Translations under genes and position numbers: made by a program
Assembly: GCF_054482595.1 (NCBI RefSeq)
Contig: NZ_CM137008.1
Reading direction: 5' to 3' (one strand)
Length of the DNA: 64,000 nucleotides
The notes under the pieces: model-generated
What the model was told of the DNA's origin: nothing
What the model saw: only the letters and a program-made list of their open reading frames with translations
Database searches by the model: none
Part shown: in pieces, positions 8,202 through 26,409 of the stretch
Numbering within the stretch: the stretch's first letter is position 1
Layout: each line of letters opens with the position of its first letter

Positions 8202-8202
8202 C

Positions 8203-8765: not shown

Positions 8766-8794
8766 ATTACTCTCGTTAACGTGGCGAGAGTAAT
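8766..8794 (+). terminator. Perfect 10-bp inverted repeat (ATTACTCTCG...CGAGAGTAAT) just downstream of gspM; possible terminator
   Basis: Hairpin read directly from sequence; the T-run lies about 20 nt downstream, so terminator function is uncertain. Confidence 0.3.
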
Positions 8795-8840
8795 TCCCCC
8801 AGACTTTATAAGCTAATTTTTTTCGTGAAGGTTATTGTCA

Positions 8841-8875
8841 GATCCAAAAGCAAAAACCCGCCTTGTGGGCGGGTT
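8841..8875 (-). terminator. Rho-independent terminator (minus-strand sense), likely the ancestral tRNA-Phe terminator
   Basis: Stem AACCCGCC/GGCGGGTT with TTGT loop, followed on the minus strand by TTTTTGCTTTTGG. Confidence 0.55.
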
Positions 8876-8887
8876 CTTAAGAATTAG

Positions 8888-8909
8888 TGGTGCCGGACTC
8901 GGAATCGAA
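8888..8909 (-). repeat. 22-nt remnant of a tRNA-Phe 3-prime end (TTCGATTCCGAGTCCGGCACCA); candidate att repeat of a pheV-type island
   Basis: Minus strand carries the T-loop and acceptor 3-prime strand ending in CCA but no tRNA body; identity to tRNA-Phe is from memory (one G fewer than I recall). Confidence 0.6.
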
Positions 8910-9019
8910 GATTTCTTTTATCATATTGATATTAATATAATTTGTTTGGTTTGATTAAAAATGTACCCTCAATTATACCCGCAGTCCCTTTTGATATCGA
9001 AAGGGAATCACACTCGGGA

Positions 9020-9865: not shown

Positions 9866-9946
9866 CGTTTTTCCTTTTGGTTTATAAACGAAAACGCCAG
9901 CCGTATTCAGGCTGGCGTCAGTGGAATGAAGTCTGGTGAGTGAGAT

Positions 9947-10144
9947 TCACCGGTTCTGGTGCAGAAGCGGCAGTTGGCGCAGGGTATGGATATCCTCCCT
10001 CGCCTGTTCAATACAGGACAACAGTGCTGCCGAATCCGTTTTATCCTCATTGTTGTCAAAGATAATTCCGGATTCGCAGTCGATATTGTCCTGCAGCCAC
10101 GCAATCAGAATATCCAGTGCGGTTTCCGTGGTTAATGATTTCAT
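9947..10144 (-). CDS. Small hypothetical protein (65 aa)
   Basis: ATG at 10144 preceded by AGGAG; sits between the yeeW-like ORF and the 281-aa ORF. Confidence 0.45.
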   Translation of the reverse strand: MKSLTTETALDILIAWLQDNIDCESGIIFDNNEDKTDSAALLSCIEQAREDIHTLRQLPLLHQNR

Positions 10145-10155
10145 GTTGCTCCTGG

Positions 10156-10644
10156 TTACCAGTTGAAAGTGGGTAAACCCGGCAGGCATTCAGCGCTGGC
10201 ATCCAGATGAATGAGACTGACACCATAACGTCGGGTAAGTGTGACAACCAGACGGCGGAACGTTTTTGACAGCCCCAGGCGCTTAAGCCGCAGAACCGGA
10301 TACGGCCACGCATCAGTACGTAACAGATAGCCGCTGCCGGTAAAATGAATCCATTCTGATTCACCGAAGTCACTGGTCTGGTGTGACAGCGAGTACAGCC
10401 AGGCGTTGTCCGTTTCCGTGATATGTGCGGTACTGCAGTGTATACCGGTCAGGACAGCAAATGGTGGCATGCAGTCTGTTGAGGCCCGGTCAGATGCATC
10501 AACAACACGAAGGGAGTGGCCATTATCACAGACCACGTTAATCAGTTCAGCGAGATTAACACCATCGACGTCAACGACAATGCGTCCCATGTTCAGTGCC
10601 TGCACGTTAATGCTGTCGGCTTCCAGCGTCAGGGCCAGTTTCAT
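10156..10644 (-). CDS. YeeW-like hypothetical protein downstream of the CbtA-family toxin
   Basis: 162-aa ORF whose start overlaps the cbtA-like stop by 4 bp (ATGA), suggesting translational coupling. Confidence 0.55.
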   Translation of the reverse strand: MKLALTLEADSINVQALNMGRIVVDVDGVNLAELINVVCDNGHSLRVVDASDRASTDCMPPFAVLTGIHCSTAHITETDNAWLYSLSHQTSDFGESEWIHFTGSGYLLRTDAWPYPVLRLKRLGLSKTFRRLVVTLTRRYGVSLIHLDASAECLPGLPTFNW

Positions 10645-11018
10645 TGTTTCGCCTCCGGATGTTTCCCCTGGGTAATGTTATTTACCGTTCTGTAGTTATC
10701 GCGGGTCATCAGGCCGGTTGCCCTGCGAGCCCGGAGAATATCAATACTGTTTATTAACTGAGAGCGGGTACAGGCGCTGAATCCCGGCTGGTCGGTACGT
10801 ATCAGTGCGTATTTTTCAACGAGAAAGTTCACCGTATCACACAGTGAAATGCCAGCTTCAATATGCTGCTCAATCACACGTTCATCGGCGAACGGTGTGT
10901 CATTCAGTGTGAGGCCATAGTGCTGGTCCAGCAACCGGGACAGCAGTGTCTGCCAGATGGTGACGGGAGGCGGGCAGCGCGATGCCTCCCGTACATGCGT
11001 GTCGGGTAATGTTTTCAT
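10641..11018 (-). CDS. cbtA: CbtA/YeeV/YkfI/YpjF-family toxin
   Basis: 125 aa; sequence (MKTLPDTHVREASRCPPPVTIWQTLLSRLLDQHYGLTLNDTPFADE...) closely resembles CbtA as I recall it. Confidence 0.85.
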   Translation of the reverse strand: MKTLPDTHVREASRCPPPVTIWQTLLSRLLDQHYGLTLNDTPFADERVIEQHIEAGISLCDTVNFLVEKYALIRTDQPGFSACTRSQLINSIDILRARRATGLMTRDNYRTVNNITQGKHPEAKQ

Positions 11019-11107
11019 ACTGAAGATTTTCCTGATATGCAGAGATGAAAAATGGAAAAGTGGCGTGGTGAAAACACCAGGCCGGAGCAGAAGGTTATTC
11101 CGGAGAG

Positions 11108-11476
11108 TTAATTTTTCATTTCGGGTGTCGGATAAACAGCCAGATAAACGTAACCACAGGAGCCGAGGGTGTCGGCTTCACAGGTCAGCCCCTTCGCATA
11201 CAGTGTCACGGTATGCTGATGGCGGGGATTCAGTTCACCGCTGGTGAGCATGAGCTCCAGTTGTTTCATCAGCAGCGGAAAGGCCTGGTCCAGATGGTAC
11301 GCATCCGCGTCGCTGAACCGGCCTCTGATACCGGCGCGGTCGGCAAGGTAATGCAACTGATTGCCCTCCTGCACCAGACGGGCGCCGAAACAGGGCGTCA
11401 CGGTGCAGGGTAGTCCCCACCAGGGACGGTCATGATTGTCATCGGGATGCGTTGTCCCGGAGAGTGTGTCTGACAC
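11108..11476 (-). CDS. cbeA: CbeA/YeeU/YfjZ-family antitoxin
   Basis: GTG start at 11476 with GAGGA upstream gives 122 aa (VSDTLSGTTHPDDNHDRPWWGLPCTVTPCFGARLVQEG...), matching YeeU-type length and sequence. Confidence 0.85.
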   Translation of the reverse strand: MSDTLSGTTHPDDNHDRPWWGLPCTVTPCFGARLVQEGNQLHYLADRAGIRGRFSDADAYHLDQAFPLLMKQLELMLTSGELNPRHQHTVTLYAKGLTCEADTLGSCGYVYLAVYPTPEMKN

Positions 11477-11525
11477 GATAAAATCCTCACAGAAAATCGG
11501 TGAATGATAGTTTAACGATGACGGG

Positions 11526-12170
11526 TCAGCCGGCGCGCAGACCGGCTTCGGTGAAGGTGTATTCGTTGATGAGTAGGGCCTCATCCACAGCGGCGTCTGA
11601 GGTCAGCCAGTCGTACTCGTTTTCCAGTTGACGGTACAACCAGAAGGCCAGGCCGCGCAGGGCTTCGCTGACAGCGGCTTCCGCATCGGTTGTCATAGTC
11701 TGACCAGTCGGACTGTTCTGGGTGACGGTGATATCCATGCTGTACGGATGGCAGTAGCGTCCCCTGTGGTGGATTTCAGCCTGCAGTTGCCAGAAGTTAC
11801 GCTTTTGCACCGCCTGCAGGGCATCCGCGATACGATGAAGTTCATGCTCCTGTGGGGCATACTTCCGGATTCTTCTGACTGTCGCTGGCTGCCAGTGCCA
11901 GCGTCCTTCAAAACAGGCTCCGTCCCCCTGGCTGCAGAATCCGCTGAACCAGATGCTCGGCTCCTCCATAAACCTGCCGTTGCTGAGCCGGAAAACGCGC
12001 TGGCGGAGGTCAATTCCGAAAATGCCACAGACCTCCCTGAAGTCTTCATACACGTTTTCATACCAGTTGCTGTCAGCATGATGCTGACGGTACCCGTCGC
12101 GGGCTTTTTCCTGTGCGGTGGAGGATAGCTCATTCAGTGTATACACGGTGGTGGTGATAATTCTGTTCAT
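11526..12170 (-). CDS. Hypothetical protein (214 aa) between yeeT-like and cbeA-like genes
   Basis: Long ORF with protein-like composition (WFSGFCSQGDGACFEGRWHW); not recognised; atypical position for this module. Confidence 0.5.
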   Translation of the reverse strand: MNRIITTTVYTLNELSSTAQEKARDGYRQHHADSNWYENVYEDFREVCGIFGIDLRQRVFRLSNGRFMEEPSIWFSGFCSQGDGACFEGRWHWQPATVRRIRKYAPQEHELHRIADALQAVQKRNFWQLQAEIHHRGRYCHPYSMDITVTQNSPTGQTMTTDAEAAVSEALRGLAFWLYRQLENEYDWLTSDAAVDEALLINEYTFTEAGLRAG

Positions 12171-12188
12171 CAGAATTCCCTTCCTGGC

Positions 12189-12410
12189 TCAGTTCAGGGT
12201 GACGCTCATCAGCCGGACATACGGGCCAAAACTGTCCTTACGGCGTTCTGCAAACACGGCCAGTACACCGGGAATATCCTGCACTTCACGACCGGTATAC
12301 GCTTCAGTGCTGCCGTGCCAGCGGTATTTGCCGGTGCAGAACGGAAAAAGACGGGATGCAGGATGCTGTTGGTGAATACGCATGGCTTCACCACGGGTGA
12401 TGATTTTCAT
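12189..12410 (-). CDS. yeeT: YeeT-like DUF987 protein
   Basis: 73 aa (MKIITRGEAMRIHQQHPASRLFPFCTGKYRWHG...), near-identical to YeeT as recalled. Confidence 0.8.
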   Translation of the reverse strand: MKIITRGEAMRIHQQHPASRLFPFCTGKYRWHGSTEAYTGREVQDIPGVLAVFAERRKDSFGPYVRLMSVTLN

Positions 12411-12478
12411 AGTGGGATACCTCTGAAGACAGAAGATAAAAGTGAAAACAGGTGTGATGTGGTTGTGACGGTGACGGG

Positions 12479-12955
12479 TTAAAGCAGACCATGTTCGGCA
12501 AAGGAGAAAACCTGGCTGCCACCGACTATCAGATGGTCCGGCACCCGGATATCCACCAGGCCCAGTGCCTGTACCAGACGTTCCGTGATAAGGCGGTCTG
12601 CCTTGCTGGGTGTGACTTCACCGGACGGGTGATTGTGTGTCAGCACCACAGCAGCGGCATTGTGATACAGGGCGCGTTTAATCACTTCACGGGGATGGAC
12701 TTCCGTGCGGTTGATGGTGCCGGTGAAGAGGGTTTCACCGGCAATCAGCTGATTCTGGTTGTTCAGATACAGCACCCGGAACTCTTCACGCTCCAGTCCC
12801 GCCATGTTCAGAATCAGCCATTCTCGTGCCGCACGGGTGGAGGTGAAGGCCACGCCGGGTTCATGAAGATGGCGGTCCAGGGTTTTCAGGGCCCGTTGAA
12901 TGAGGCTGCGCTCGCCGGGCGTCATCTCTCCGGGCAGAAAGGAAAGCTGTTGCAT
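12479..12955 (-). CDS. yeeS: RadC-like JAB-domain protein (YeeS/YfjY/YkfG family)
   Basis: JAMM-type motif HNHPSGEVTPSKAD; preferred ATG at 12955 has GGAG upstream (ORF track begins at 12970). Confidence 0.85.
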   Translation of the reverse strand: MQQLSFLPGEMTPGERSLIQRALKTLDRHLHEPGVAFTSTRAAREWLILNMAGLEREEFRVLYLNNQNQLIAGETLFTGTINRTEVHPREVIKRALYHNAAAVVLTHNHPSGEVTPSKADRLITERLVQALGLVDIRVPDHLIVGGSQVFSFAEHGLL

Positions 12956-12970
12956 TGTACTTCTCTCCAT

Positions 12971-13456
12971 TCAGTCGATGATGCGCATAATGGCGCTGCA
13001 TTCCGGATGCTGCAGGGCGTAATCCCGTAGACGGTAATAATGAACCGTCATGGCATAATTCTCTGTACGACAGGCGTGATGGCTGTACGTCATCAGACAG
13101 GCGGCAATACCAGCAGCTTCCGGGCCCATTTCAGCGCGGTTACCATTCATGGCATTGAACAGCACCCAGGTTTCTCCATCATCTTCATCCGGTTCGGGCG
13201 CCATAAATGCGCCGCCGTTATTCAGGGTGTACAGATTCCAGATACCACCGCAGTAGTCTTCACACAGACGGTCCATCCAGCCGAAGACACGGGGCTCCAG
13301 GGTCACCCACTGTGGAATGAGGCCAAAGTGCTGCGGCCAGAAGCTGATACGTTGTTCATCAGGGACGGGAGTAGCAACCAGTTGGGGCTGGTTATTCCCT
13401 GGTGCAGTAGTTACGGAAACAGAAGGTGTGGTGGAGCTATGCGAAAAGGTTGTCAT
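12971..13456 (-). CDS. Antirestriction protein (YfjX/YafX, KlcA/ArdB-like)
   Basis: 161-aa ORF immediately upstream of the radC-like gene in the conserved CP4-type order; family from memory. Confidence 0.7.
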   Translation of the reverse strand: MTTFSHSSTTPSVSVTTAPGNNQPQLVATPVPDEQRISFWPQHFGLIPQWVTLEPRVFGWMDRLCEDYCGGIWNLYTLNNGGAFMAPEPDEDDGETWVLFNAMNGNRAEMGPEAAGIAACLMTYSHHACRTENYAMTVHYYRLRDYALQHPECSAIMRIID

Positions 13457-13547
13457 GAGATTATTCCTTATAAAAAGTAAATGAATGGAAGAATGCCTGA
13501 GGACTGGTACAGACGTGAGTCAGGGCTGCACTTTCAGGGAAACAGCA

Positions 13548-14366
13548 TCAGCGCATGCTCTCCAGCAGCGTTTCTGCCATCACCCACAATGCGCGATTGA
13601 GCTTAATGTCCGTGTCGATGCTGTGAATGGCCCGGGTGTGGATACGTTTTCCTTTAGCGCTGCGACCGGAAATCCCGCCTTTCAGCATATTCTCCTGGAT
13701 GGTCTGATAAGCACTCCACAGGTCCTTACCGTAATCCTCCCGGCGTCGTGGCGTCAGAATGTCGGCGGTGGTGACGGGCTGATGTTCGTCACCATAACGG
13801 TAAGTCAGTGCCGCCTGTGCCAGCGCCTGACGTGCCGGTGGCGGCAGAATCAGCGACTGCATGGCATCACGCTTTTCCTCAATCCGGTCAAACACGCCCA
13901 CCACCTCGTAAGCCCCTTCGATAACTTTCTCCACTACATTTCCCCGGTGTGGAACACGCACTTCCCCCAGAGACTGACCACAGACGCAGCCGTTCTGGCA
14001 GACGAATCTGAAGTAACCCGGTAGCATCTGGTAGCTGGAGGTACCGTCATGGGAGTTGAGCAGAATAATTTCAGGGACATGTTGTCCGGTTATCTCCCCG
14101 TCACGCCGCAGACGCAGCATGTGTTTGGTGTATTCCCGGCGGCTCTGGTCGCGCACGCGGGTCTGGCAGGCAAAGAACGGCTGAAAGCCTTCCTGCTGCA
14201 GATTTTCCAGGACGGTGATAGTGGGAATGTACGCATAGTGTTCACTTCGGGAGGTATGTCGGTTTTCCCCAAAAATACTCGGTACATGGCGCATCAGTTC
14301 TTCGTGTGTCAGCGGACGGTCACGGCGTATCTGATTTACATGACCAAAACGACTGGCTAATTGCAT
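13548..14366 (-). CDS. DUF932-family protein (YafZ/YfjQ-like)
   Basis: 272-aa ORF at the position and size of YafZ/YfjQ in CP4-type modules. Confidence 0.7.
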   Translation of the reverse strand: MQLASRFGHVNQIRRDRPLTHEELMRHVPSIFGENRHTSRSEHYAYIPTITVLENLQQEGFQPFFACQTRVRDQSRREYTKHMLRLRRDGEITGQHVPEIILLNSHDGTSSYQMLPGYFRFVCQNGCVCGQSLGEVRVPHRGNVVEKVIEGAYEVVGVFDRIEEKRDAMQSLILPPPARQALAQAALTYRYGDEHQPVTTADILTPRRREDYGKDLWSAYQTIQENMLKGGISGRSAKGKRIHTRAIHSIDTDIKLNRALWVMAETLLESMR

Positions 14367-14455
14367 ACTTTGCTCCTTATGAATGAGTTAGCGGTATAAA
14401 TGAAAAGGCCGCGTCTCCCGGAGAAGACGCGGCCTGATGGATGAAATGAAGACGT

Positions 14456-14725
14456 TTATTGCCTGAGAATTCCCTCGCTGGCGAGATACGGGTTTAGCTG
14501 TTTTCCGGCATCAGGTTCAAAATTCCAGCAGCGCCAGCGTAGCTGGCCTTCAGCGTTGCGGATCACCAGCCGGAAATGCGTTCCCTGGTCATCTTCAATA
14601 AGCACATTAAGGTAAGCCGTTGTGACGGCAAGAGCCTGGTTGCGTGAGAAAGGGCCTTCGGGCAATAAACGTGATGTACAACCTGGCATATCTGTTGCTC
14701 CCTGTAAGTAAAAGGCCCCGGTCAT
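14456..14725 (-). CDS. Small hypothetical protein (89 aa) between antigen 43 and the DUF932 gene
   Basis: ORF with protein-like composition; not recognised. Confidence 0.4.
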
Positions 14726-14759
14726 GATGACCGGGGCCTGAAGGGGAGTGACCTGATTA

Positions 14760-17606
14760 TCAGAAAGTCACATTCAGTGTGGCCTGACCGTTATAACCTT
14801 CAGCGCTGCTGCCGCTGACACTGTGGGCATAACCGGCCTGAACGCCCAGGGTGATATTTTCCCGGACACGGGCTTCCAGTCCGGCCTGCAGGTCCAGTGT
14901 CGTGCCATTCCGGGACGGTGAGAACGTCATGTTACTGCCGGCTGCGGCTGTACCCATGCTCATGTCCCCCCGGGAGCTGAAGGTGCGGATAACAGAAGGC
15001 TGTACCCACCAGTTCACCTGCAGTTCACGCACACTGTGTTTGGCACTGTCGCGCAGGGTGTCACGGGATGAGGTGCCTTTACCAAAGTTCATATCGTTGT
15101 GGCTGCCCAGACGGAAGCCGGCACGCACATGTTGTGCACTGCCATGCCCGAACTTCACATAACCGGCGTTATCCTGGCCGTCATCCAGGGAGAGTCCCTG
15201 CCAGGTGTACTGCAGTTGCGGCTCCAGCATCAGATTGTCAGTGATACTGAAGGGCAGACCGGTTTCCAGTGAGCCCAGCCAGCCCCAGCCCCGGGCGCGG
15301 AAGTCGTTATTGTCCGATGACGCTTTCATGCTGTGGCGGGTTCCCTGTGCCACAATGTCAGCCCACAGGCCGGAGGACGTGTGTGTCAGATTCAGGTATC
15401 CGCCCAGGCTGCCGGCATCATCCCGGACCGTGCCGGCGCGGGAACCGTCATCATCCTTAACATCAACGGAAGAATGGCCTGCAGCACCATATACCCCTGT
15501 CGTCAGAGACATACCGGCAACCTCTGTTCTCAGCAGGTCACCCTCCAGACGGACGAAGCCATAGCTGCCGCTGCTTTCCGGCGTGGCTCCACGGGCAATA
15601 CCGCCGTTGTTATCGTGACCGAGATGACCGCCCTGAATGCTGAGACGGACGCTGTTATTTTCACCGTTTACACCGGTCTGATGGCTGCGGGAGCCTGCCA
15701 GAATCCGGTCATAGTCCATTGCCTGTGTCAACATGGATGTATACAGGGGGACTTCAGCACGATAAGCATTTTCACTGCGCAGGTACCAGTCTTCATCGCT
15801 GTCACGGTTCAGGGTGTAGTTAAAGGCGCCGGCCTGAAGCGGGCGACTCAGAGCAAATGCACCTTCTTCTGTGGTGGCACCATTCTGTGCATCCACAACC
15901 CGGATACCCTGTCCGGAGGTTGCCACCCCGAGGTTACTGTTTCCGACATTTGTAAACGCAAGCCAGGTTTTGCCGGTTGCCTGACCACCATTAATCACCA
16001 GCTGGTCAGAGGCATTGCTGCCATCAAGGCGAACACGCATATTGATGGTGCCACCCTGACCGGTGAGGTTACTGGTGGTCAGTTTATGGAACGTTACCGG
16101 GGCGTCGCCTTTTGCAACAGCACGGCTCAGGACGGCATCCTGTGTCGTCTGATTATCAAAGCGAATCTCCCCTGCGTTAACAATATCGCCGGTACTGACC
16201 ACATCACCATTCAGTACCATGCTGGCGCCTTTACTGAGCTGTGTTCTGCCACTCAGACTTCCCCCGGCAGCCAGCGTCAGTGTTCCACGATGTCCGACAG
16301 TGGTGTTGCCAGCCTGTCCCCCGGCATTAACCGTAAAGCTGCCGCCATTTTCCAGCAGCAGGCCGCTGGCCTGACCGGATATGCCATCAATACTGAACTT
16401 ACCGCTGGCATTGGTCCCCTCAACAGTGGCACCACTGTCTGCAATCAGGGCACCACCGGATGTCATGGTGACACCTGTCGCCTTACCACCGGCAGACACT
16501 GCCAGGGTACCGCCGTCATCCACCCGTGTTTTCTGCGCTGAATGACCCTCCAGTACATCCAGACGACCGCCGGACTCCAGAACAACACCGTCAGCCTTAC
16601 CGTTTTCCACCGCGAAATTGCCCAGACGGTTGCTGCCGGTGACGGTTGCCGCCGTACTGGTGACCAGTGCGCCTCCCTGCTTCAGGGTGACATTCGTGGC
16701 TGTACCACCGGCGTTCACCTGCAGTTTGCCTTTCTGGTTAACGGTGGTGAAATCCGCCAGACCACCTTCCTTGATAATCTGCCAGCCGTCACTGTTCACA
16801 ACAGTGTCAGACGTTGTACCTCCGTTGTGCACATACTGGTACCCCCCATTCAGCGTGGTATCCAGTGCGTGACCATGTACCGTCTGGTCGCCGCCGGCAT
16901 AAACCACCGTGGTGTTTGCCACTCCGGTGGCTACCACAATCTGACGACCATTTTTATTGATGGTGGTACGTACGGCATCTCCGCGAACAAACTGTCCGGT
17001 ATCAGCATTTTCCGCATCCGGTCCTCCTTCTGCGCCGGTATTCACAACCGTGTCGGTTGCCATTGCGCCGGATTTGACGGCCTGCCAGCCCTTCTCATTA
17101 ATGACGGTACCCGTTGCAATCCCGCCTTCATGTACCCACTGCTCACCGCCGTTCAGAGTGGTGTTCACTGCCTGCCCCTGAAGGCTCTGTCCTCCTCCGG
17201 CACTGATAACCGTGTCTGAAACGCTTCCTCCGGCATTCACTCTCTGAAGACCACCACCGGTGACAGTAGTGTTGTTGGCGATACCGCCATTTTGTATCCA
17301 TTGTCCGCCGGTATTGGCCTCGTTATCCGGCCCATACTCCAGCCCGGTACTGATGGTCATTCCGTTGGCCGTACCGAGGACAATCTGGTTGTCATGATTT
17401 GTCAGTGTTCCGTCGTTCACGGTTTCTCCCGCCTGTACAACCGTGTCAGCAGCCAGTGCCGGGACTGATGTGACAGCAGCAAGAGACAGTGCAACCGCCA
17501 CACCGGCGCGTTTTCCCCGTGAGCGGGCCAGTTCGGAGGCCACCACCAGGGTGCCCGTAATGTGATTCCATACCAGCCTGTAGCTGGTGTTCAGATGTCG
17601 TTTCAT
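14760..17606 (-). CDS. flu: Antigen 43 (Ag43) self-associating autotransporter adhesin
   Basis: Start at ATG 17606 ([28 protein letters not shown]...); repetitive passenger domain and C-terminal beta-barrel ending ...GQATLNVTF. Confidence 0.92.
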
Positions 17607-17823
17607 CAGCTTTTCCTTACAGAGGGTGAATAAAAAAGCCGGTACCCACAAATGTGGATACCGGCAGGTACAAAACAGCATGGTCAGATAAAGTGGTTTT
17701 TCCCGGGCATAAATGCTTCCCTTCTCTCATCCGCCAGAGAAGTATCAGTCCGTTGTGTGCAATTCCGTTCTGCATGATGAAGAGATTCAGCTGCCTTTTC
17801 GCAGACCATTAACCACTATAAAC

Positions 17824-17859
17824 GATCGATAGTAACGATCGATACCTGTTTTATCGATC
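17824..17859. promoter_or_regulatory. Three clustered GATC sites upstream of the Ag43 gene (candidate Dam/OxyR phase-variation switch)
   Basis: GATC at 17824-17827, 17837-17840 and 17856-17859, about 220-250 bp upstream of the Ag43 start. Confidence 0.7.
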
Positions 17860-17977
17860 GTTTTATTCTATTAACGACAAGGCGGTCACGCAAGAGAAAC
17901 AGGAGGAGTATGAGGGGTTTGTGTCATGTTTTCAGTTGGTTAACGTAATGTTATCAGGCATTTCCCTGGCAGACTGT

Positions 17978-18850
17978 TCAGAAGAAAATCCAGTTCCATA
18001 CAGCGCGGGCAACAGAGACCACCGTGTCACGGACGGCACGCAGAACCGTGCGTGCAACAGAGGCAATACAGACGCTCTCCGCTGTGTCAAATATCCGGTC
18101 CACCGCACCGGTAAACTGTTCACGGGCCTGAGACCGGACAGATTCCGTGCGCAGCTCGTCCTGCAGGCGGGTCATCAGGGGACTGGCGGCATGGTCGGGA
18201 AGCGCTGTCATGAGCGCACTGACCAGCGTATCCAGTTCCCAGCCGGTGCGGGCCGATACGGCCACAACCGGATGTACGGGCCGGAACAGACGGAATACCG
18301 CCTCCGTTTTTTCGCGAATATTCTGTGCCTGTGCGGGAGAAGGCTGAATGCCGGCCATATCCCATTCATGGCAGGGCTCCGTTTTGTCGGCCTGCGTCAC
18401 CACAAACAGCACCTGCTGATGTCCCCGGTGCAGGATGTGTCGCCAGAAATACTCATCCACAGACAGGGCACGGTCATCGGCTTTAATCAGCCACAGTACC
18501 AGGTCAAGTTCAGGCAGAATGTCACGGTACAGGGCTTCATACTCTGCATCCCTGTCCCGGCTCTCGCCCACCCCGGGCAGGTCAGTGATAATCATACTGT
18601 GACCGTGGCCACTCAGACGGAAGCGCCGCACTTCCCGGGTGCCGGCGTGAACATCACTGACCGGGGTGACCTCCCCCTGAAACAGTGCATTACAGAGTGA
18701 GGATTTACCGGCCCCGCTTTTCCCCATAATGCCAATCACGGGTTCGTGACTGGTGAGTTTGCGCAGATGTTCCAGGATGTGACGGGAAAGTGAGTAAGGC
18801 AGGGAGGAGAGCGGTTTTTCAATTGCCTCAATGGCATCAGACGGATTCAT
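17978..18850 (-). CDS. yeeP: YeeP/YkfA/YfjP-family GTPase
   Basis: P-loop GKSGAGKSSL and DLPG motif; preferred ATG at 18850 (ORF track begins at 18913). Confidence 0.8.
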   Translation of the reverse strand: MNPSDAIEAIEKPLSSLPYSLSRHILEHLRKLTSHEPVIGIMGKSGAGKSSLCNALFQGEVTPVSDVHAGTREVRRFRLSGHGHSMIITDLPGVGESRDRDAEYEALYRDILPELDLVLWLIKADDRALSVDEYFWRHILHRGHQQVLFVVTQADKTEPCHEWDMAGIQPSPAQAQNIREKTEAVFRLFRPVHPVVAVSARTGWELDTLVSALMTALPDHAASPLMTRLQDELRTESVRSQAREQFTGAVDRIFDTAESVCIASVARTVLRAVRDTVVSVARAVWNWIFF

Positions 18851-19204
18851 ACATGTATTCCCGGTGAAAAAAGACAAAACCCCCGCACACCGGAAAGGTG
18901 GCGGGGGACTCACGGAGATAATATATGTCTGAAATTATTTGGAATGCAGGTATATGTGGCTGATACAGGTCTGAATCTAATCTGACAGTCCGCTCTGTGC
19001 CAGTAGCGGACGTTACTAACATAATTCAAGAAGATTAAAGTATTCCGGAAACGATTTTGTTAGAATGTTTTAATTATGTAACCAAGATACATTTTCTTAT
19101 GAGAGTATATGCGAGTTTTTATCTTATAATCAGAAGATTACAATCTGAACTTGTGATAGTAAAGTTACATAATTAATTATGTTAACATTGAAAAAATCAT
19201 AGGA

Positions 19205-19945
19205 ATGCTAGTGATAAAGCCTGAAATTACATCTCTATTCAAATACTGCCCTATCGGTAAGAATCAATTAAGTGCTCTTGCACAGCGGAAAATCTGGTAC
19301 TCAAAACCGGCAGGATTTAACGATCCTTTTGACACCCAATTTTATGTGAGAGGACAAAGGCATGTGTACGAACGGGAAATGGACTCTGAAAAATTATCAG
19401 CCATTTTTGGTGAAGATATGTCAGATGTAATGGTTTCCAAAAAACGTTCTCTTGATGAACTTTTGGACAGATTTAAAAGCGGTTTAGAAAAGTTAGGTAT
19501 TCTTTCACTAGCAAGCAGTAACAAAAATTTGCTGATGTGGTCGCATTATGCTTCTGAACATAAAGGTATGTGCTTAGAGTTTAAACGCATCGCCGGCACA
19601 GCCTTAGCAGATGATAAAATAACTAGGCCGATGAATTACAATGATAATTATCCATCGATACAGGCAAGTTCAATTTTAAATGAAGTCGATACATTATCTA
19701 ATAAAATTAGAATATTACATACAAAATCTAAACATTGGGAATACGAGCAGGAGTGGAGGCATGTAGTTGAGCAAGGTAATGAGTTACATCCTTGGCCCGC
19801 AGAATTAATTTCTGTTTATTTCGGCTGCAAGACAGATATGTCAGATATACATTTGGTAAGAAGTATAATTACGGACCCAAATGTTAATTACTATAAAGGA
19901 AATTTGTACAGTGATAAATTTGACATTTATTTTCAACCGATATAA
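19205..19945 (+). CDS. DUF2971-like protein (MWSHYA motif); function unknown
   Basis: 246-aa ORF in a visibly AT-rich segment; contains LLMWSHYASEHKG; family assignment from memory. Confidence 0.55.
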   Translation: MLVIKPEITSLFKYCPIGKNQLSALAQRKIWYSKPAGFNDPFDTQFYVRGQRHVYEREMDSEKLSAIFGEDMSDVMVSKKRSLDELLDRFKSGLEKLGILSLASSNKNLLMWSHYASEHKGMCLEFKRIAGTALADDKITRPMNYNDNYPSIQASSILNEVDTLSNKIRILHTKSKHWEYEQEWRHVVEQGNELHPWPAELISVYFGCKTDMSDIHLVRSIITDPNVNYYKGNLYSDKFDIYFQPI

Positions 19946-20090
19946 TTACGTAAAAACATATATACATTAACTAATGTTAAGTATTGTAAATACATCACGA
20001 TCGATTGAATGTCTGCTGTTCGCTCGCAGCGGACCTTCAGTTCATGTAACTTTTCCGCTTCGTACCAAAAGCGGACGTCAAAATGTATGT

Positions 20091-20438
20091 TCAGCTAGCG
20101 TAAGTTGAGCGTTTCATAATGATGTCTCTCTGCGGGTCTGACCCAACCTGACAAATATGCTCTCCAACCTCGGTAAACCCAAGCTTACGATAAAAAGAGA
20201 TTGCCCTTGGGTTATATTCCCAGACACCTAACCAGACAGGATCCGATCCCTTTGCCTCAAATTCAGCAAAGCACTTTTGCATCAGTGCTTGCGCAAATCC
20301 TTTACCATGGTAGGGCTCATCGACATACAGGCACAGAATTTCTCTGGCATAGATGCTATTGACACAGGGAGGAAACTCTTCCCACCTTAGTTGAGCGTCA
20401 ATTTGTGGCGAAAACCCATGAGTTAGAAATTCAATCAA
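20091..20438 (-). pseudogene. GNAT-family N-acetyltransferase fragment (N-terminally truncated)
   Basis: 115 aa with GNAT-like C-terminal core (YHGKGFAQALMQ...FYRKLGFTEVG) but too short for a full GNAT domain. Confidence 0.5.
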
Positions 20439-20528
20439 TTACAGGAAGGAAAAGTAAAGGAGGGGGTGGCTCTCTTTAGGAGAGCCATGAGTGGAAATGG
20501 ATATTAGAAGAAAGGAGTTGTTTCCACA

Positions 20529-21665
20529 TTAAAAATTAAGTTCATACCTATCAATTACACCATTTTTTATTCTGTAAATAACATTAGATGAAATTGACTC
20601 AAAGTAAACATACCCAACTGCTTGGATTATATTTATTAGCATGCAAGAAAATGAAACAATGAATAGTGGCAGCGAGGATGTGTTGTAGTTTACCAGGTAA
20701 ATAAATTCGCCATAATACAATGGCCCACACATTGCGAGTGCTAATGATATAAATAAAAAACCTTTTATTGCTTTAATTAAAAATATAGAGGCGTTTATTT
20801 GTTTTCTTATCTTTTCATCGCCTAAGAGATAAAGGTTGAAATCTTGAGATTTTGTTGTGTCCACTGAGAAGATATTAAGAATATGTGGGTATATCAATGA
20901 TATATCCTTTGTTTTCATAAGATTCATCATCTCTATTCTCCGCGTGACGAACAGTGAACCCAACCAAAAAACCATGAATACAGGCATAGCATAACTAGCT
21001 ATTTTGGCTATACTTATCAATGATACACTAGATGCCATGTCACCTATTTTAAATGGGATAATTAAGGTTGATTCTATGTTGACTATCTCTATCTTTGAAT
21101 TACTCTCATCTTTTATTTTTCCATCCAACCAGTTCATTGCATCATGATAGTTTGCGATTTTATCTTTTTCAGGAAGGGCCGATTCTATTTTATCCCTTAC
21201 AATATAGCCCACACTTGATTTTTCAATCTCTTTTTTCAACACATCGTACATAAAGTATTTTAACTCATTAATTGAACTCACCTCATCAAGGTCTATTTCA
21301 CGCAATCCCTCATTTATCATTTTTTTTCTAATGGAAAAGAATTCATTTTCTATTTCTGATTTATATCTTACTGTGTCCATCTCTGATTTATTTATTCTTT
21401 TTCGAAAGTCTAGAATATCAGATACGCTTTCATTAACAGCTGAAATTTGTGTTTCGATAAATTCTATTTTTCTTCTTTTTGTTTCAATTTGTTGTTTTAT
21501 ATCTTTGTATGAGGTTATTAAAGCAAATAGGTTTTGGCTGCTTAATGTAATTAATAAAGAGCAGGTGAGGAAACTAAAAATAACAACAACAATACTCATG
21601 TATAATAATCTATCAAATCTCTTTCCCAGTTCGTACAACCTATCCACTATTCTTCTCACTTTCAA
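20529..21665 (-). CDS. Membrane protein with N-terminal TM, central coiled-coil-like region and C-terminal TM cluster; function unknown
   Basis: 378-aa ORF in very AT-rich DNA; start uncertain (TTG 21665, GTG 21644 with GAGAAG upstream, or ATG 21599). Confidence 0.55.
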   Translation of the reverse strand: MKVRRIVDRLYELGKRFDRLLYMSIVVVIFSFLTCSLLITLSSQNLFALITSYKDIKQQIETKRRKIEFIETQISAVNESVSDILDFRKRINKSEMDTVRYKSEIENEFFSIRKKMINEGLREIDLDEVSSINELKYFMYDVLKKEIEKSSVGYIVRDKIESALPEKDKIANYHDAMNWLDGKIKDESNSKIEIVNIESTLIIPFKIGDMASSVSLISIAKIASYAMPVFMVFWLGSLFVTRRIEMMNLMKTKDISLIYPHILNIFSVDTTKSQDFNLYLLGDEKIRKQINASIFLIKAIKGFLFISLALAMCGPLYYGEFIYLVNYNTSSLPLFIVSFSCMLINIIQAVGYVYFESISSNVIYRIKNGVIDRYELNF

Positions 21666-22508
21666 AGGCGATATAGATAGGTTATATCATGCCTTCATCT
21701 TTTGAACTAAACAATCTATATCAGATAACAGTTCTCTTCGCAGTTGTGTCCCTACTCTTTGGTGGCCCGTAGGCTCCTGAGCTGGACATCGTGCGGGACT
21801 ACCTCACAGTCAATTGTAAGCAGTAAAGAGGAACGAGAACCATTCATAGAGCCTAACACACTAAATGCCGCATTGAATCCCACGACTCGGCACGATCAAC
21901 GTAAGATAATCGGAGCTTGCTGCATGGTGACAAATGGAAAATGTGAAGGTAAAGAAAACGACATTACTAACTGACGTTTGTATCTAACACTGGGGACAGG
22001 TCACCTTGAATCGATGGAAGTCTCATTATTCAGAAGCCGTGCTTCTCAGGGTTCTCCTGCAGTGGATAGTTTGTACGATTTGCTCCTCCGGACACTACGG
22101 GCCAGAAAAGTTGAAAATTGAGACTATGTACCAGGTGCCTCAACGTCCGCTCATCGCTCACAACGGACCTTCAGCTCAGCCGCTCCGGCCGCTTCATGCA
22201 ATGAATGTACGCAGCCAGTCAGAATATTAAGGTGCGGATTTCAGTTCACTTGTCAGCCCTGTGATGCAACAAGTTGCGGCTCCGGTTCGTGGGAGAGATG
22301 AAACGACGGTAGCTGAAGTTACTGAAATGAAGAATTCAGAGAGACTGAATGATATGCCTCACCTTTAGTGAATAGTGTAAAAACGGGAGACTCTCACCCG
22401 GGATTATCCACTCATGCTCAATGTATAATTTTCGTGTCCCTCACAGGTAAGGGCCGGATACATTTGTTGAGTACGCTGCAGAATTGGTAATCGGGGACCC
22501 TGCCGTCT

Positions 22509-22721
22509 TTAACTCCGGGTCTTATGCTGCTCATTTGCCACAAAATCCAGGTGCGCCTGCTCAATCATTTCATTCAGCATTTTTTTTGGGGGGACACCAC
22601 GACTTCGGGCAATACTTTCAAGCTGTTTGTGGATTTTTCCGGACAGTTTCAGCGGGACGGAACCATCAGCACGTTCATCACGCCTTTTTTGTTGCTCCCT
22701 GGCACTTTTCAGTTCATCCAC
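22509..22721 (-). CDS. Small putative ribbon-helix-helix-like protein (70 aa)
   Basis: Charged small protein with VPLKLSGKIHKQLESIARSRG pattern; overlapped by plus-strand ORFs, so coding status is uncertain. Confidence 0.3.
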   Translation of the reverse strand: MDELKSAREQQKRRDERADGSVPLKLSGKIHKQLESIARSRGVPPKKMLNEMIEQAHLDFVANEQHKTRS

Positions 22722-24429
22722 AATATAGCTGCTCTTCTCGCATTTTTGCCGATTTTAAAAATGCGAACAAAACATCCGTACATGATGTACAGATTAAACT
22801 GCCAGGGACTGGTGTCAGAAAACCTCCGGTTAGCCTGCTCTTTCCGGAATGTGCCGGTTATGAAAAACCGGAAATTCAGTCTCTGTTGTAAGATGTACCC
22901 TCTGATACTACGTTTTCGTTTTCTCTGTGTATTTAACTCACTGTATTTATTTTCTTTTTAAGCCTGACTGATATTCTCCGGTCATAGTGTGCCTGATAGA
23001 CATCCCGTAACCTTCTCATTTTTATATAAAAATACCTGCACTGTCTTCAGCGCATCTGTCTCCTTTAAGTAAAAAATGTTTTCACGTATTGCTGTAAATT
23101 CATTTTAAATCAGTATGTTATCCTGATATTGCTGTCTCCTGGTTTGATGCGTAATCGTTCTGCCTTTCTGGATGATTCTGGTGCTTCCGGGTGCATTCTC
23201 CTCTGCACATGCAACAGTTCGTCATCGCCACGTGCCCAAAAGCATATAAAAACGAATCGAATCTGATCGTTTTTTCAATCGTTTTTCACAGGAATTTCGT
23301 AGGGTGTTCTCCGCTATAGCCTCCATATTTGCTGTCTTTTTCTTCATAAATCGTATGCAATATAACCAGTCTGTCAAGACATCTTCCCTGCTGTTGAGGT
23401 GACGATCTCATTTCTGGTCTTTTCCGGGAGAGAGACGGTCAGATGAGCGAGCCGGATTTACTGCCAGAGGTACTCCCCGCGGCAGAAAATAGTGCTCCTG
23501 TTTCCGCAATCCGGGATCGGCAACGTCCCATGGTTAATGCCACTTGCAGCGTCAGGCACTGCAGGTTTACGTCGTGATCTGATTTCTTCTGCACTTATCC
23601 CGATCACGGAAGTTCCCCCTGCGCAGACATCGGTTCCTGCCGACATCTCACAATACCGCCAGGCAGTCATGCAGTAACACCCGCAATGCGGTCTGCGGTT
23701 TTAAGCGCACTCTCCTGTATTCAGTGCACCGATAATGCATCATAGAAAGTCCGGGGGGAGTTACTGAATGTCTGTTAAGTGGTGCCGTGGGTGGAGACTG
23801 CTTACTTTTCCACAGTAACTGCAGTCATTCAGGATGCTCAGGAGAGAATATGTCAACGCCACGGGCCGGGCCATTTTCATGCCAGCCAGGATATTTTCAA
23901 TATTGATGCTGTCTGCTTTTCACCATTTCATCCTCACTGACTGATGTTGTATTTTTGTGCAGCACTACAGATTTGCGTTTCTCTTTTAACTGGTCACGCT
24001 CTCCTTTGATATTCAGCGTGGTTGAGTGATGCAGCAGTTGATTCAGGATTGCTGTTGCCCTGCAACCACCATATCAACTTCTTCCCGGCATGCCGGCGCT
24101 GGTATCCAGGCCGGGTTTCGAAGTGAAGCGTTCCTGACGGACTCATTGATATCCGGGCCGGATGTAGTCATGCAGCATGGAACGTCTACCCGTATACACT
24201 GACGGCGTCCGGCCGTGTACATCTCTTCCGCGGTTCAGGGAGCGCTGTCGCCATGTACTTATTGTCACCAGGAGAGGCATGTACCGCAGCATGCCAGCTC
24301 AGCAGTGACAGGATGCCCTTAAGACATCCGTCATGGCTCAGTATGACGACGCCCCCGCTCTGCAGGTGAGCATGCGGGGCCGGGAGCAGCATTCCCGTAT
24401 TTTGCCGCACCTTCCGGAAGCAACCGGCA

Positions 24430-25047
24430 TCAGTTACGGTTATCGTCAACCGTTGTGCGGTATGCCAGGAGCACGTACTGATCCATCAGATCCGCCAGTG
24501 CTGCGTTCTGCTTCTGACGGTCGATGATCCATTCCCCCAGCTCTTTTTCTGATTTACGTTTCAGGTTCTCCGTCCAGTCGTCAAGGCTGTTTCCGGTCAT
24601 TAAATCAAGCCAGCAAAGCCAGACCAGTTTGAGGCGCAACTCAGTGCCACCAAACTGACGGAAGAGGCTGATCAGTTTATTTGCCAGAGAACGCCGCCTC
24701 AGACGTTCACATTCAGACAGCAGAATGCCTTCCAGCATCGGATGATGAACCAGCAGATGTTCGCTGGTGCATAAGTTCACCACCAGATCATCATCCAGGG
24801 GCGGCGTGGCCCGTTTGTCAGAGCCATAAATCAGCCGGTGCAGACTCCGGGGGACGATGGCAATCTCCGGTTTTTCACCATTGAATGACACCCACCCGGG
24901 CGTCAGATTATGGAAGTAGTGGATATTCGGATGACATACGCCCCAGGATACGGCGTGCCGGGTGAAGCCGGTCAGCCATTTCTGGTAGCTTTCGTGGAGC
25001 AGCTCGTAACGGGTCTGATACTGTGGTTTCATTTTCATATTCCTCAC
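24430..25047 (-). CDS. Hypothetical protein (205 aa) downstream of alpA
   Basis: ORF co-oriented with the AlpA-like gene; not recognised. Confidence 0.5.
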   Translation of the reverse strand: MRNMKMKPQYQTRYELLHESYQKWLTGFTRHAVSWGVCHPNIHYFHNLTPGWVSFNGEKPEIAIVPRSLHRLIYGSDKRATPPLDDDLVVNLCTSEHLLVHHPMLEGILLSECERLRRRSLANKLISLFRQFGGTELRLKLVWLCWLDLMTGNSLDDWTENLKRKSEKELGEWIIDRQKQNAALADLMDQYVLLAYRTTVDDNRN

Positions 25048-25125
25048 GGGGGATAACAGGCAGCAGAACGCCGCCGGCAGGCCGGAGATTGCGTCTGCTG
25101 TGGGTGAAGGGGCAGTGGTTAAAAA

Positions 25126-25335
25126 TTACGGACGGGACTGTGCAATACGCGCCTGCAGCCAGGCTTCCACTTCACTTTTCAGCCAGCGGGAGCTGCGGCC
25201 AAGTTTGATGGGAGCCGGAAAGGCCCCATCCTTGATGAGCTTGTAAAACCACTTATCGGTCAGGCCGGTCAGCTGAGTGATAAACGCCATATCGACCATC
25301 TGGTCATCCATCAGCGAAACTGGGGGGGGGGTCAT
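25126..25335 (-). CDS. alpA: AlpA-family phage/island transcriptional regulator
   Basis: 69 aa with AlpA-type HTH (ITQLTGLTDKWFYKLIKDGAFPAPIKLGRSSRWLKSEVEAWL); codons 2-5 lie within a C10 homopolymer. Confidence 0.8.
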   Translation of the reverse strand: MTPPPVSLMDDQMVDMAFITQLTGLTDKWFYKLIKDGAFPAPIKLGRSSRWLKSEVEAWLQARIAQSRP

Positions 25336-26409
25336 AAAAATCTCCTCCGGATGTTGTTAATCTCAACCGGCGTTGATGATGAAAACAACGCACCACCTTC
25401 ACCGGCATAACAACCGGGGAGAAACGTAAAAAATCAGTAGGGGAATATTCCTGCCAGGAGAGAAACGGTTGTGTACAGGCAATACAGGTTGTCTGTTTTG
25501 TCAGTGAAGCCGGTATAAACGGAAGATGATTTTGTGTTGCCGGAATATGGGATGGTATTTTGTCGTGACGGAATCAGTATTTTCAGTGATGATTATTACT
25601 GCGCAGGGGAGTACCGGAGAGAAACCACGCCCTGTACCTGCCAGAGCGGTGGTTTGTATTGACTGAACGGAAGATAAAGCGAGGTAAACACTGTTGTGGT
25701 GAGCGGAGAAGACTGAGATTATTCTCTGTAATTACAAACAACAGTGATCTTATCCGGTTTTTTTACCGTTACGGGTTTCAGGGGATCAATTTTATAGACC
25801 GGGGTAATGACCACGCCGTAATTTATGGAGAAAAGCGGGATCCAGCAATAAACGTCAGGATATTTCTGTGTCTCCGGAATACCTTTTGTGCCAGAGGCCA
25901 TCAGATCTTTAACGCTCACGAAAAATGACTTCCGCAGATCAAAAAAGTACTCGTTATATATCACATCCTTTGCCAGCAGGATGACTGCATTACCAACAGC
26001 CGATTTTACAGGTGTTTCATCAGGTGGATTATCGTGATTGTATATTGTTCTTTCTATATAAATAAAACAGGCATATTTCGTCTTCTCCCCGGATAGTTGC
26101 ATCTGGTATTCGCAAATGTCTTTGATATACCGACTTTCAACCCTTCCAATCATCTTATCCCGGCGATAGTGTCTTTTATGTTTCAGCGCGTACAGAACAC
26201 CATTTGAACTGTCAAACTCCAGGACACTTCTGGTGAAAAGTTTGTTTTCCCAGATCTCCAGACAATACTTCTCTGCACTGACGACATTGCGTTTGTGGGG
26301 AAGATTCCGTTGATACACTCCATTTAATAAGCGTGACTGCAGTTCGCCTGCAAGTTGATAGTAACAGTTAATGTCATTAAGGACAGGTGCTGTGGCGTTG
26401 GATTTGCCC

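What the first reader, a model, noticed from the sequence alone, without database searches (positions are those of the whole stretch)
17607..17977. Ag43 regulatory region with three GATC sites (candidate phase-variation switch)
Three GATC sites lie within 36 bp (17824-17859) upstream of the Ag43 gene. In agn43 this arrangement is the known Dam-methylation/OxyR epigenetic switch, so this copy is probably phase variable.
Basis: partly seen in the sequence, partly recalled or inferred. Interest (0 to 1): 0.35.

Follow-up and report, generated by a model that had tools for sequence, protein, structure and literature searches.

The report
Ag43 adhesin on/off methylation switch

Summary
GATC lies at 17824-17827, 17837-17840 and 17856-17859, in the 371-bp gap between a GTPase gene and a full-length Ag43/Cah gene (14760-17606, minus strand).

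The 19- and 13-bp spacing matches K-12 agn43/flu exactly. It is invariant in 10 E. coli alleles from two diverged leader lineages, and 114 of 119 loci chosen without regard to GATC keep all three sites.

All three GATCs lie in the arms of two OxyR-like half-sites (8/10 matches each, 32 bp apart). No shuffle out of 2000 reached that score. One half-site covers the -10 box and the transcription start.

The rest of the interval is the IsrC/IS102 leader (Rfam RF00124, 74.6 bits). It ends in a conserved terminator 26 nt before the start codon (to its T-run).

This allele type occurs in 3446 of 5426 complete E. coli genomes, so nothing here is new. Two side points:
- The K-12 central OxyR half-site is not conserved in this majority allele type.
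- Ag43 genes are almost free of GATC (4 seen, 666 expected over 91 alleles), so the switch sites are nearly the only Dam targets in about 10 kb.

Methylation and switching themselves could not be tested here.

The parts
17856..17859 (.). GATC-I, the promoter-proximal Dam site. Its G on the minus strand (17859) is the inferred transcription start.
   Evidence: In K-12 the annotated isrC RNA starts at the G of the first GATC. The Rfam match starts 2 nt upstream.
17837..17840 (.). GATC-II, 19 bp from GATC-I.
17824..17827 (.). GATC-III, 13 bp from GATC-II.
17857..17871 (-). OxyR-like half-site X, ATAGAATAAAACGAT (8/10 to ATAGnTnnnAnCTAT). It covers the -10 box, the start site and part of GATC-I.
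   Evidence: Scores 8/10 in 9 of 10 alleles (identical in 8) and 7/10 in Z1323.
17825..17839 (-). OxyR-like half-site Y, ATCGTTACTATCGAT (8/10). GATC-II and GATC-III form its two arms. It starts 32 bp after X.
   Evidence: The same design, two GATCs 13 bp apart inside one OxyR half-site, is described for Salmonella gtr (PMC2909390).
17865..17870 (-). Inferred -10 hexamer TAGAAT.
   Evidence: Read from the sequence. Nearly invariant in 76 distinct sequences. The simple promoter scan did not call it because the -35 matches only 3 of 6.
17888..17893 (-). Inferred -35 hexamer TTGCGT with a 17-bp spacer. The TTG is invariant and the spacer is hypervariable.
17607..17859 (-). 253-nt 5' leader of the Ag43 mRNA, a member of the IsrC/IS102 RNA family.
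   Evidence: Rfam RF00124 at 17625-17861, 74.6 bits against a gathering score of 46, E = 1.5e-11. Leader lengths are 252-253 nt (this lineage) and 220-228 nt (K-12 lineage).
17632..17665 (-). Intrinsic terminator in the leader: a 12-bp GC-rich stem (17665-17638) followed by six T (17637-17632).
   Evidence: Natural variants keep the pairing (T.G becomes C-G or T-A). PMC5389530 states that flu is controlled by antitermination at IsrC.
17614..17618 (-). Shine-Dalgarno sequence AAGGA, 7 nt before the ATG.
   Evidence: Invariant in all alleles.
14760..17606 (-). Ag43/Cah family autotransporter adhesin gene, 948 aa, intact.
   Evidence: NF033177, 1987 bits, full length. RefSeq annotation of the 99.8%-identical Santai copy.
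17978..18850 (-). Upstream YeeP-like GTPase gene (context). K-12 has the same gene order: yeeP remnant, isrC, flu.

Best explanation
The interval is the complete regulatory region of an Ag43/Cah adhesin gene and works as the agn43-type epigenetic phase switch.

A sigma-70 promoter (-35 TTGCGT at 17893-17888, -10 TAGAAT at 17870-17865) starts transcription at or next to the G of GATC-I (17859). An OxyR tetramer binds unmethylated DNA over about 17875-17818, through half-site X (over the -10 box and start site) and half-site Y (GATC-II and GATC-III in its arms). Binding blocks RNA polymerase and shields the three GATCs from Dam. This is the heritable OFF state.

If Dam methylates the sites first, after replication, OxyR cannot bind and the gene stays ON.

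Transcripts then cross a 253-nt IsrC-type leader. Its conserved terminator (17665-17632) stops a fraction of them before the ribosome-binding site, giving a second layer of control.

Shown here: the sequence anatomy, the homology, the conservation and the statistics of the OxyR-like pattern. Inferred from K-12 experiments: OxyR binding, differential methylation, bistable switching and antitermination.
For: - Full-length Ag43/Cah gene.
- GATC spacing of 19/13 bp identical to K-12 and invariant in 10 alleles of two diverged lineages. The 12 GATC columns are all invariant, against 11 of 24 columns between them.
- 114 of 119 loci anchored on a sequence that contains no GATC keep all three sites, while the promoter spacer and the 4 nt between GATC-II and GATC-III vary freely.
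- Half-sites X and Y total 16/20 at 32-bp spacing. None of 2000 dinucleotide shuffles reaches 16 at 22- or 32-bp spacing.
- Paired GATCs 13 bp apart inside an OxyR half-site, with spacing that fits reduced OxyR, are documented for gtr (PMC2909390).
- The K-12 isrC annotation starts at the G of GATC-I.
- Rfam RF00124 match at 74.6 bits and a conserved terminator with pairing-preserving variants.
- Literature on the K-12 mechanism and on IsrC antitermination.
- Unmethylated GATC triplets were found upstream of two agn43 genes in a sequenced E. coli methylome (PMC4752239).
- The surrounding about 10 kb is purged of GATC, yet these three sites are kept.
Against:
- The published K-12 register of the OxyR site (37 bp, half-sites 22 bp apart) scores 14/20 in K-12. 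In this allele it reaches about 10/20 by my hand count, and the best score at 22-bp spacing anywhere in the region is 13/20. The segment between GATC-I and GATC-II differs (8 of 15 bases identical).
- The -35 hexamer matches only 3 of 6, and the simple promoter scan found nothing.
- dam and oxyR are not in the window. Their presence is assumed because the sequence is E. coli.
Confidence: 0.9

Rival explanations
1. The region descends from the agn43 switch, but in this allele type the diverged centre of the OxyR site weakens or re-registers OxyR binding. Under this reading the copy is biased or locked (mostly ON), or switches at rates very different from K-12.
For: The K-12 central half-site is not conserved (about 10/20 in the K-12 register by hand count; the best 22-bp score in the region is 13/20). 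Only 8 of 15 bases between GATC-I and GATC-II are shared with K-12.
Against: Half-sites X and Y score 7-8 of 10 in every allele of both lineages. This allele type is the majority form, in 3446 of 5426 genomes, and its GATCs are under clear constraint. That constraint would be pointless in a locked copy. The extended 32-bp spacing matches other OxyR/Dam switches.
Confidence: 0.07
2. The CGATCG palindromes are conserved mainly for a reason other than Dam/OxyR competition. Examples are a 5' RNA hairpin that stabilises the leader, or binding by another protein such as SeqA.
For: The palindromes can pair in RNA, and the Rfam model includes a hairpin formed by GATC-II and GATC-III. The variable 4 nt fall in its loop. 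The minimum-free-energy fold pairs the GATC-I and GATC-II arms.
Against: No compensatory double changes are seen in 76 distinct sequences. These 5' helices are absent from the centroid structure. In the consensus fold the first helix is an artefact of GATC mis-registration, and only the terminator is robustly shared by both lineages. K-12 experiments assign these exact sites to Dam and OxyR. The two roles do not exclude each other.
Confidence: 0.03
3. The GATC cluster is a chance occurrence with no function.
For: About one cluster of 3 GATC in 36 bp or less is expected per 64 kb, and another exists at 41834-41864.
Against: Identical spacing in K-12, invariance across two diverged lineages, 96% retention in 119 loci, and a GATC-free neighbourhood.
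Confidence: 0.005

Closest known systems
E. coli K-12 agn43 (flu) Dam/OxyR phase-variation switch
   Same: Three GATCs at 19/13-bp spacing. The same -10 region, AATAGAATAAAACGATC. Half-sites X and Y. The same gene order (GTPase, leader, adhesin). The same terminator and ribosome-binding site.
   Different: The 15 nt between GATC-I and GATC-II share 8 bases with K-12, so the K-12 central half-site is missing. The sequence after GATC-III and about 130 nt of the leader cannot be aligned. The leader is 253 nt against 222 nt, and the adhesin is 948 aa against 1039 aa.
cah regulatory region of E. coli O157:H7, and Ag43 copies of Nissle 1917
   Same: The same regulatory lineage: 89% (O157:H7) and 96% (Nissle) identity over all 371 bp, with the same GATC block.
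   Different: Only point differences. The O157:H7 allele has TTTAT instead of TTACT between GATC-II and GATC-III.
IsrC / IS102 RNA (Rfam RF00124), the agn43 leader with premature termination and antitermination
   Same: Full-length model match above the gathering score, with an identical terminator hairpin and tail. flu is reported to be controlled by IsrC antitermination (PMC5389530).
   Different: The middle of the RNA is diverged and carries extra insertions (41 and 63 nt, against 35 and 35 in the model). How antitermination works was not examined here.
Salmonella gtr and opvAB OxyR/Dam phase switches
   Same: OxyR half-sites that contain two GATCs 13 bp apart, with half-site spacing that fits reduced OxyR (PMC2909390).
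   Different: Those systems have four GATCs, three or four half-sites, and alternative activating and repressing OxyR positions. Here there is a single repressing site over the promoter.
pap-type Lrp/Dam switch
   Same: Heritable competition between Dam and a DNA-binding protein at promoter GATCs.
   Different: pap uses Lrp and PapI, with two GATC boxes 102 bp apart. None of that is present here.

Membership tests
agn43-type Dam/OxyR phase-variation switch | Three GATC sites at fixed spacing at the promoter and transcription start of an Ag43-family gene | tested here: met
   19/13-bp spacing identical to K-12 and to 9 other alleles. The gene matches NF033177 over its full length.
agn43-type Dam/OxyR phase-variation switch | Sequence homology of the promoter and operator to the characterised K-12 region | tested here: met
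   The ungapped alignment is conserved from the -35 TTG through GATC-III (68 of 120 bases overall, near-identical in the core). The flanking leader is diverged.
agn43-type Dam/OxyR phase-variation switch | An OxyR-binding sequence that overlaps the GATC sites | tested here: met
   In silico only. Half-sites X and Y score 8/10 each, 32 bp apart, and contain all three GATCs. None of 2000 shuffles reaches 16/20. The canonical 22-bp register reaches only 13/20 at best.
agn43-type Dam/OxyR phase-variation switch | OxyR binds unmethylated but not Dam-methylated DNA | not testable with these tools
   Needs a gel shift or footprint. Shown for K-12 in the literature.
agn43-type Dam/OxyR phase-variation switch | Sites unmethylated in OFF cells and methylated in ON cells, with heritable reversible switching that needs dam and oxyR | not testable with these tools
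   No methylome or expression data. PMC4752239 reports unmethylated GATCs upstream of agn43 genes in another E. coli.
agn43-type Dam/OxyR phase-variation switch | The host encodes Dam and OxyR | not tested
   Neither gene was looked for in the window. The host is E. coli by 99.8-100% identity to E. coli chromosomes, and E. coli carries both genes (established knowledge).
IsrC/IS102 leader RNA (RF00124) | Covariance-model score above the curated gathering threshold | tested here: met
   74.6 bits against 46, model positions 1-206 of 206.
IsrC/IS102 leader RNA (RF00124) | Intrinsic terminator just upstream of the adhesin ribosome-binding site | tested here: met
   12-bp stem plus six T at 17665-17632. 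Conserved in both lineages, and variants preserve pairing.
Ag43/Cah autotransporter adhesins | Full-length match to the equivalog model above its cut-off | tested here: met
   1987 bits against a cut-off of 1200, positions 1-948 of 948.

The most novel reading that the evidence does not exclude
The three switch sites are kept as the only Dam targets in a GATC-purged neighbourhood. GATC is the most depleted of all 256 tetramers in Ag43 genes. The novel reading is that this isolation is itself selected, because nearby GATCs would bring in processive Dam or SeqA and destabilise epigenetic inheritance. In addition, the majority (Cah-type) alleles may bind OxyR only in the extended 32-bp geometry, which would give switching properties different from the K-12 model allele.
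Probability: 0.2. Interest if true: 0.45.

Novelty: already known. Interest (0 to 1): 0.12.

Why it matters
It tells an annotator that this Ag43/Cah copy is intact and very probably expressed in only a subpopulation of cells. That affects how aggregation, biofilm and expression data from this strain should be read. It adds no new biology, because the mechanism is textbook and this allele type is present in most E. coli genomes. The side observations would matter only to specialists in epigenetic switches, and only if confirmed experimentally. These are the near-total absence of GATC from Ag43 genes and the fact that the K-12 central OxyR half-site is not conserved in the common allele type.

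Tried and rejected
- MAFFT alignments of the window against K-12 put a 13-nt gap inside the GATC block and hid the shared register. The ungapped comparison corrected this. The first helix of the consensus fold is an artefact of the same problem.
- The simple promoter scan found no promoter, because the -35 matches only 3 of 6.
- A first simulation script timed out.
- A Markov simulation trained on the 371-bp region itself is uninformative, because the GATCs inflate the model (3521 of 20000).
- I first assumed the window was strain Santai's cadC-side island. It is not. Only 8878-26400 and 27730-51336 match. Santai's gsp-side island lacks Ag43, and XH990 has an empty site. The source strain was not identified.
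- An exact-pattern scan of the species-representative genomes with the terminator sequence found nothing.
- The primary K-12 papers (Wallecha 2002, Wallecha 2014, Kaminska 2010) are not held. Three facts are recalled from the Wallecha 2002 abstract and were not re-read: the start site at the G of the upstream GATC, the -16 to +42 OxyR(C199S) footprint, and the 101-nt minimal region. The Toledano 1994 description of oxidised and reduced binding geometry is likewise recalled.
- The upstream in-frame ATG at 17681 and a small 8-codon ORF in the leader were considered and rejected, because neither is conserved in the other alleles.

Full report
**Observation.** The window has GATC at 17824-17827, 17837-17840 and 17856-17859. 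The reported interval 17607-17977 is exactly the gap between two minus-strand genes. Downstream is a 948-aa ORF starting at ATG 17606. It matches the NCBIfam equivalog model for Ag43/Cah adhesins over its full length (NF033177, 1987 bits, cut-off 1200). Upstream is a YeeP-like GTPase gene ending at 17978. The ORF lister extends the adhesin ORF to an ATG at 17681. The family model, the RefSeq annotation of near-identical copies and the alignment all place the start at 17606.

**Is the cluster more than chance?** By count alone it is not. About 0.96 clusters of three GATCs within 36 bp are expected in 64 kb, 95 of 150 simulated windows contain one, and a second cluster lies at 41834-41864. The local context changes the picture. 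Outside the cluster, 9593-19321 holds one GATC where 33.9 are expected (O/E 0.03), while the other fifteen 4-nt palindromes have O/E of 0.6-1.2. So three GATCs are retained within 36 bp of a stretch otherwise purged of them.

**Homology to the characterised switch.**
- In K-12 MG1655 the same gene order is annotated: the yeeP GTPase remnant, the sRNA isrC, then flu.
- MAFFT mis-registers the GATC block. An ungapped comparison shows the three sites at identical spacing, 19 and 13 bp, in both sequences.
- I fetched eight more E. coli alleles spread over the identity range. Together with K-12 and the window they form two lineages. One is the window/Cah/Nissle type, with a 252-253-nt leader. The other is the K-12 type, with a 220-228-nt leader. 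About 130 nt of the leader cannot be aligned between the two.
- All ten alleles keep the 19/13 spacing. All 12 GATC columns are invariant, against 11 of 24 columns between the sites and 127 of 372 overall.
- For a larger sample not selected on GATC, I scanned the viral and metagenome collections with the 27-nt leader sequence just downstream of GATC-III. Of 119 loci (76 distinct 137-nt sequences), 114 keep all three sites in register. The promoter spacer and the four bases between GATC-II and GATC-III vary freely.
- Five loci have lost one site: GATC-II in three, GATC-I in one and GATC-III in one. All five are attached to open adhesin reading frames. One comes from a contig with 3.9x coverage and may be an assembly error.

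**The OxyR test.**
- Against the consensus ATAGnTnnnAnCTAT (quoted in PMC2909390; Toledano 1994, recalled), two half-sites score 8/10. X is ATAGAATAAAACGAT (17871-17857). Y is ATCGTTACTATCGAT (17839-17825).
- GATC-I lies in the 3' arm of X. GATC-II and GATC-III form the two arms of Y.
- X and Y start 32 bp apart and total 16/20. None of 2000 dinucleotide shuffles of the region reaches 16/20 at 22- or 32-bp spacing.
- Both half-sites score 7-8 of 10 in all ten alleles.
- The register usually drawn for K-12, with half-sites 22 bp apart across the three GATCs, scores 14/20 in K-12. In this allele it reaches about 10/20 by my hand count, and the best 22-bp score anywhere in the region is 13/20. 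The 15 nt between GATC-I and GATC-II share only 8 bases with K-12.
- A 32-bp spacing is what is expected for reduced OxyR, which binds two pairs of major grooves separated by a helical turn (recalled from Toledano 1994). PMC2909390 describes the same design in Salmonella gtr: two GATCs 13 bp apart inside one half-site, with half-site spacing that fits reduced OxyR.
- I recall from the abstract of Wallecha et al. 2002, which I could not re-read, that OxyR(C199S) protects -16 to +42 and that transcription starts at the G of the upstream GATC. Mapped here, that footprint is 17875-17818, which brackets X through Y closely.
- The K-12 RefSeq annotation independently places the 5' end of isrC on the G of GATC-I.

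**Promoter.** Reading back from the start site at 17859, the -10 hexamer is TAGAAT (17870-17865) and lies wholly inside half-site X. The -35 hexamer is TTGCGT (17893-17888), with a 17-bp spacer. The TTG and the -10 are almost invariant, while the spacer is the most variable stretch of the region. The simple consensus scan missed this promoter because the -35 matches only 3 of 6. An OxyR dimer on X would occlude the -10 box and the start site, which explains repression.

**Leader.**
- Rfam places RF00124 (IS102, the family of K-12 IsrC) at 17861-17625 with 74.6 bits, against a gathering score of 46.
- The leader ends in a 12-bp GC-rich hairpin (17665-17638) and six T (17637-17632). The T-run ends 26 nt upstream of the ATG. 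The Shine-Dalgarno sequence AAGGA follows at 17618-17614.
- This hairpin, its tail and the ribosome-binding site are the only part of the leader shared by both lineages.
- The few natural variants preserve pairing: the T.G pair becomes C-G or T-A.
[quoted passage not shown] The mechanism of read-through was not examined here.

[quoted passage not shown] OxyR-bound unmethylated DNA is OFF and methylated DNA is ON. Switching occurs at about 1e-2 to 1e-3 per generation. The gene is locked OFF in dam mutants and locked ON in oxyR mutants (PMC4872104, PMC3764049, PMC2909390, PMC13337833). A methylome survey found six unmethylated GATCs upstream of agn43 genes in one E. coli, which implies two copies (PMC4752239). 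For the copy in this window, every sequence requirement is intact. Binding, methylation state and switching are inferred and not shown.

**Distribution and novelty.** The 371-bp region is 100% identical to a copy in strain Santai. It occurs at 80% coverage or more in 3446 of 5426 complete E. coli genomes, with up to 7 places per genome. The K-12 type matches only the last 64 nt. The regulatory region of cah in O157:H7 is 89% identical and a Nissle 1917 copy is 96% identical. This is therefore a typical copy of the commonest allele type of a textbook system. The 2023 genome-wide survey of Ag43 variants does not mention the regulatory region, OxyR or GATC (PMC10058404).

**Context.** The window is not the Santai cadC-side island, although 8878-26400 is 99.8% identical to it. 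Its left flank is the gsp type II secretion cluster. Strain XH990 has gsp, then tRNA-Phe (by its position presumably pheV), then yqgA, with no island. The island here therefore sits at that tRNA-Phe site. No tRNA gene is found in the window.

**Side observation followed part of the way.**
- The adhesin gene has no GATC (7.3 expected). K-12 flu likewise has none (8.2 expected).
- Among 94 complete Ag43 genes from the metagenome loci (90 distinct, of both length classes), 90 have none and 4 have one.
- Pooled over 91 distinct alleles, GATC is the most depleted of all 256 tetramers (4 observed, 666 expected). TCGA is next (1 observed, 124 expected).
- New GATCs arise at 2 of 123 one-mutation-away sites. 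The median rate for all tetramers is 5.6%. GATC ranks 15th lowest of 256, which is suggestive but not decisive.
- The depletion is not uniform across this family of islands. The paralogous backbone without Ag43 in Santai has 16 GATCs in 6.7 kb (O/E 0.5), eight of them in its GTPase gene. The GTPase gene next to the switch here has none. K-12 yeeR, just downstream of flu, has 12.
- I found no report of this depletion in the held literature. Whether it insulates the switch or reflects restriction avoidance by the mobile element remains open.

**Verdict.** The feature is already known and ordinary.

Noticed in passing
window 9593-19321 (Ag43 gene 14760-17606 in particular); also L004, L014-L133: GATC is almost absent around the switch: 1 GATC against 33.9 expected outside the switch, while other 4-nt palindromes are near normal. 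K-12 flu has 0. Of 94 Ag43 genes, 90 have 0. GATC is the most depleted of all 256 tetramers in Ag43 genes (4 against 666 expected). New GATCs arise about 3.5 times less often than the median tetramer (rank 15 of 256). I found no report of this in the held literature.
   Followed up: partly
Ag43 coding sequences of L014-L133 and window 14760-17606: TCGA is the second most depleted tetramer in Ag43 genes (1 observed against 124 expected over 91 alleles; no gains at 61 one-off sites). Unexplained.
   Followed up: no
L134 9812-16524 compared with window 9020-18850: A paralogous island backbone without Ag43 (Santai, gsp side) is much less GATC-depleted (16 in 6.7 kb). Its GTPase gene has 8 GATCs, against 0 in the GTPase gene next to the switch in the window.
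   Followed up: partly
L016, L024, L028, L063, L096: Five of 119 metagenome loci have lost one of the three GATCs by a point change (GATC-II in 3, GATC-I in 1, GATC-III in 1), yet the adhesin reading frame is still open. These are candidate natural variants with altered switching. L063 has only 3.9x coverage and may be an assembly error.
   Followed up: partly
L014-L133 (listing; length classes): Regulatory and coding parts look mosaic. One allele joins a K-12-type promoter spacer (TTGTCCGTGCAATAGCC...) to the Cah-type operator and leader. Also, 25 of 94 Cah-type leaders precede K-12-length genes (3120-3123 nt).
   Followed up: no
window 17841-17855: The 15 nt between GATC-I and GATC-II (GATAAAACAGGTATC) differ from K-12 (AATATCTATTTTATC), so the central OxyR half-site of the K-12 register is missing. 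In this lineage GATC-I and GATC-II sit in a perfect 11-bp inverted repeat (17834-17862).
   Followed up: partly
window about 26400-27730: An IS2 element (TnpA at 27273-27683 and TnpB at 26410-27315, both minus strand) is inserted here relative to the otherwise 99.8-99.99% identical island of strain Santai.
   Followed up: yes
window 1-8900 and beyond: The island sits next to the gsp type II secretion genes, at the site where strain XH990 has an unoccupied tRNA-Phe gene. ARAGORN finds no tRNA in the window. A near-identical module lies next to cadC in strain Santai, so the same module occupies different sites in different strains.
   Followed up: partly
window 41834-41864: A second GATC cluster (4 sites in 31 bp) lies inside a coding sequence. 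By the offset-corrected Santai annotation this is the citrate lyase alpha-subunit gene. It is consistent with the roughly one chance cluster expected per 64 kb.
   Followed up: no
window 14707-14772 (minus strand): A weak, below-threshold Rfam hit to MicL (20.9 bits against a gathering score of 56) is just a GC-rich terminator hairpin overlapping and just past the Ag43 stop codon.
   Followed up: no
window 51196-63163: The right end of the window carries metabolic cargo genes: a MalX-like PTS IIBC, a PatB-type C-S lyase, an amidohydrolase, a DcuC-family transporter and a LysR regulator. There are also IS66 remnants.
   Followed up: partly
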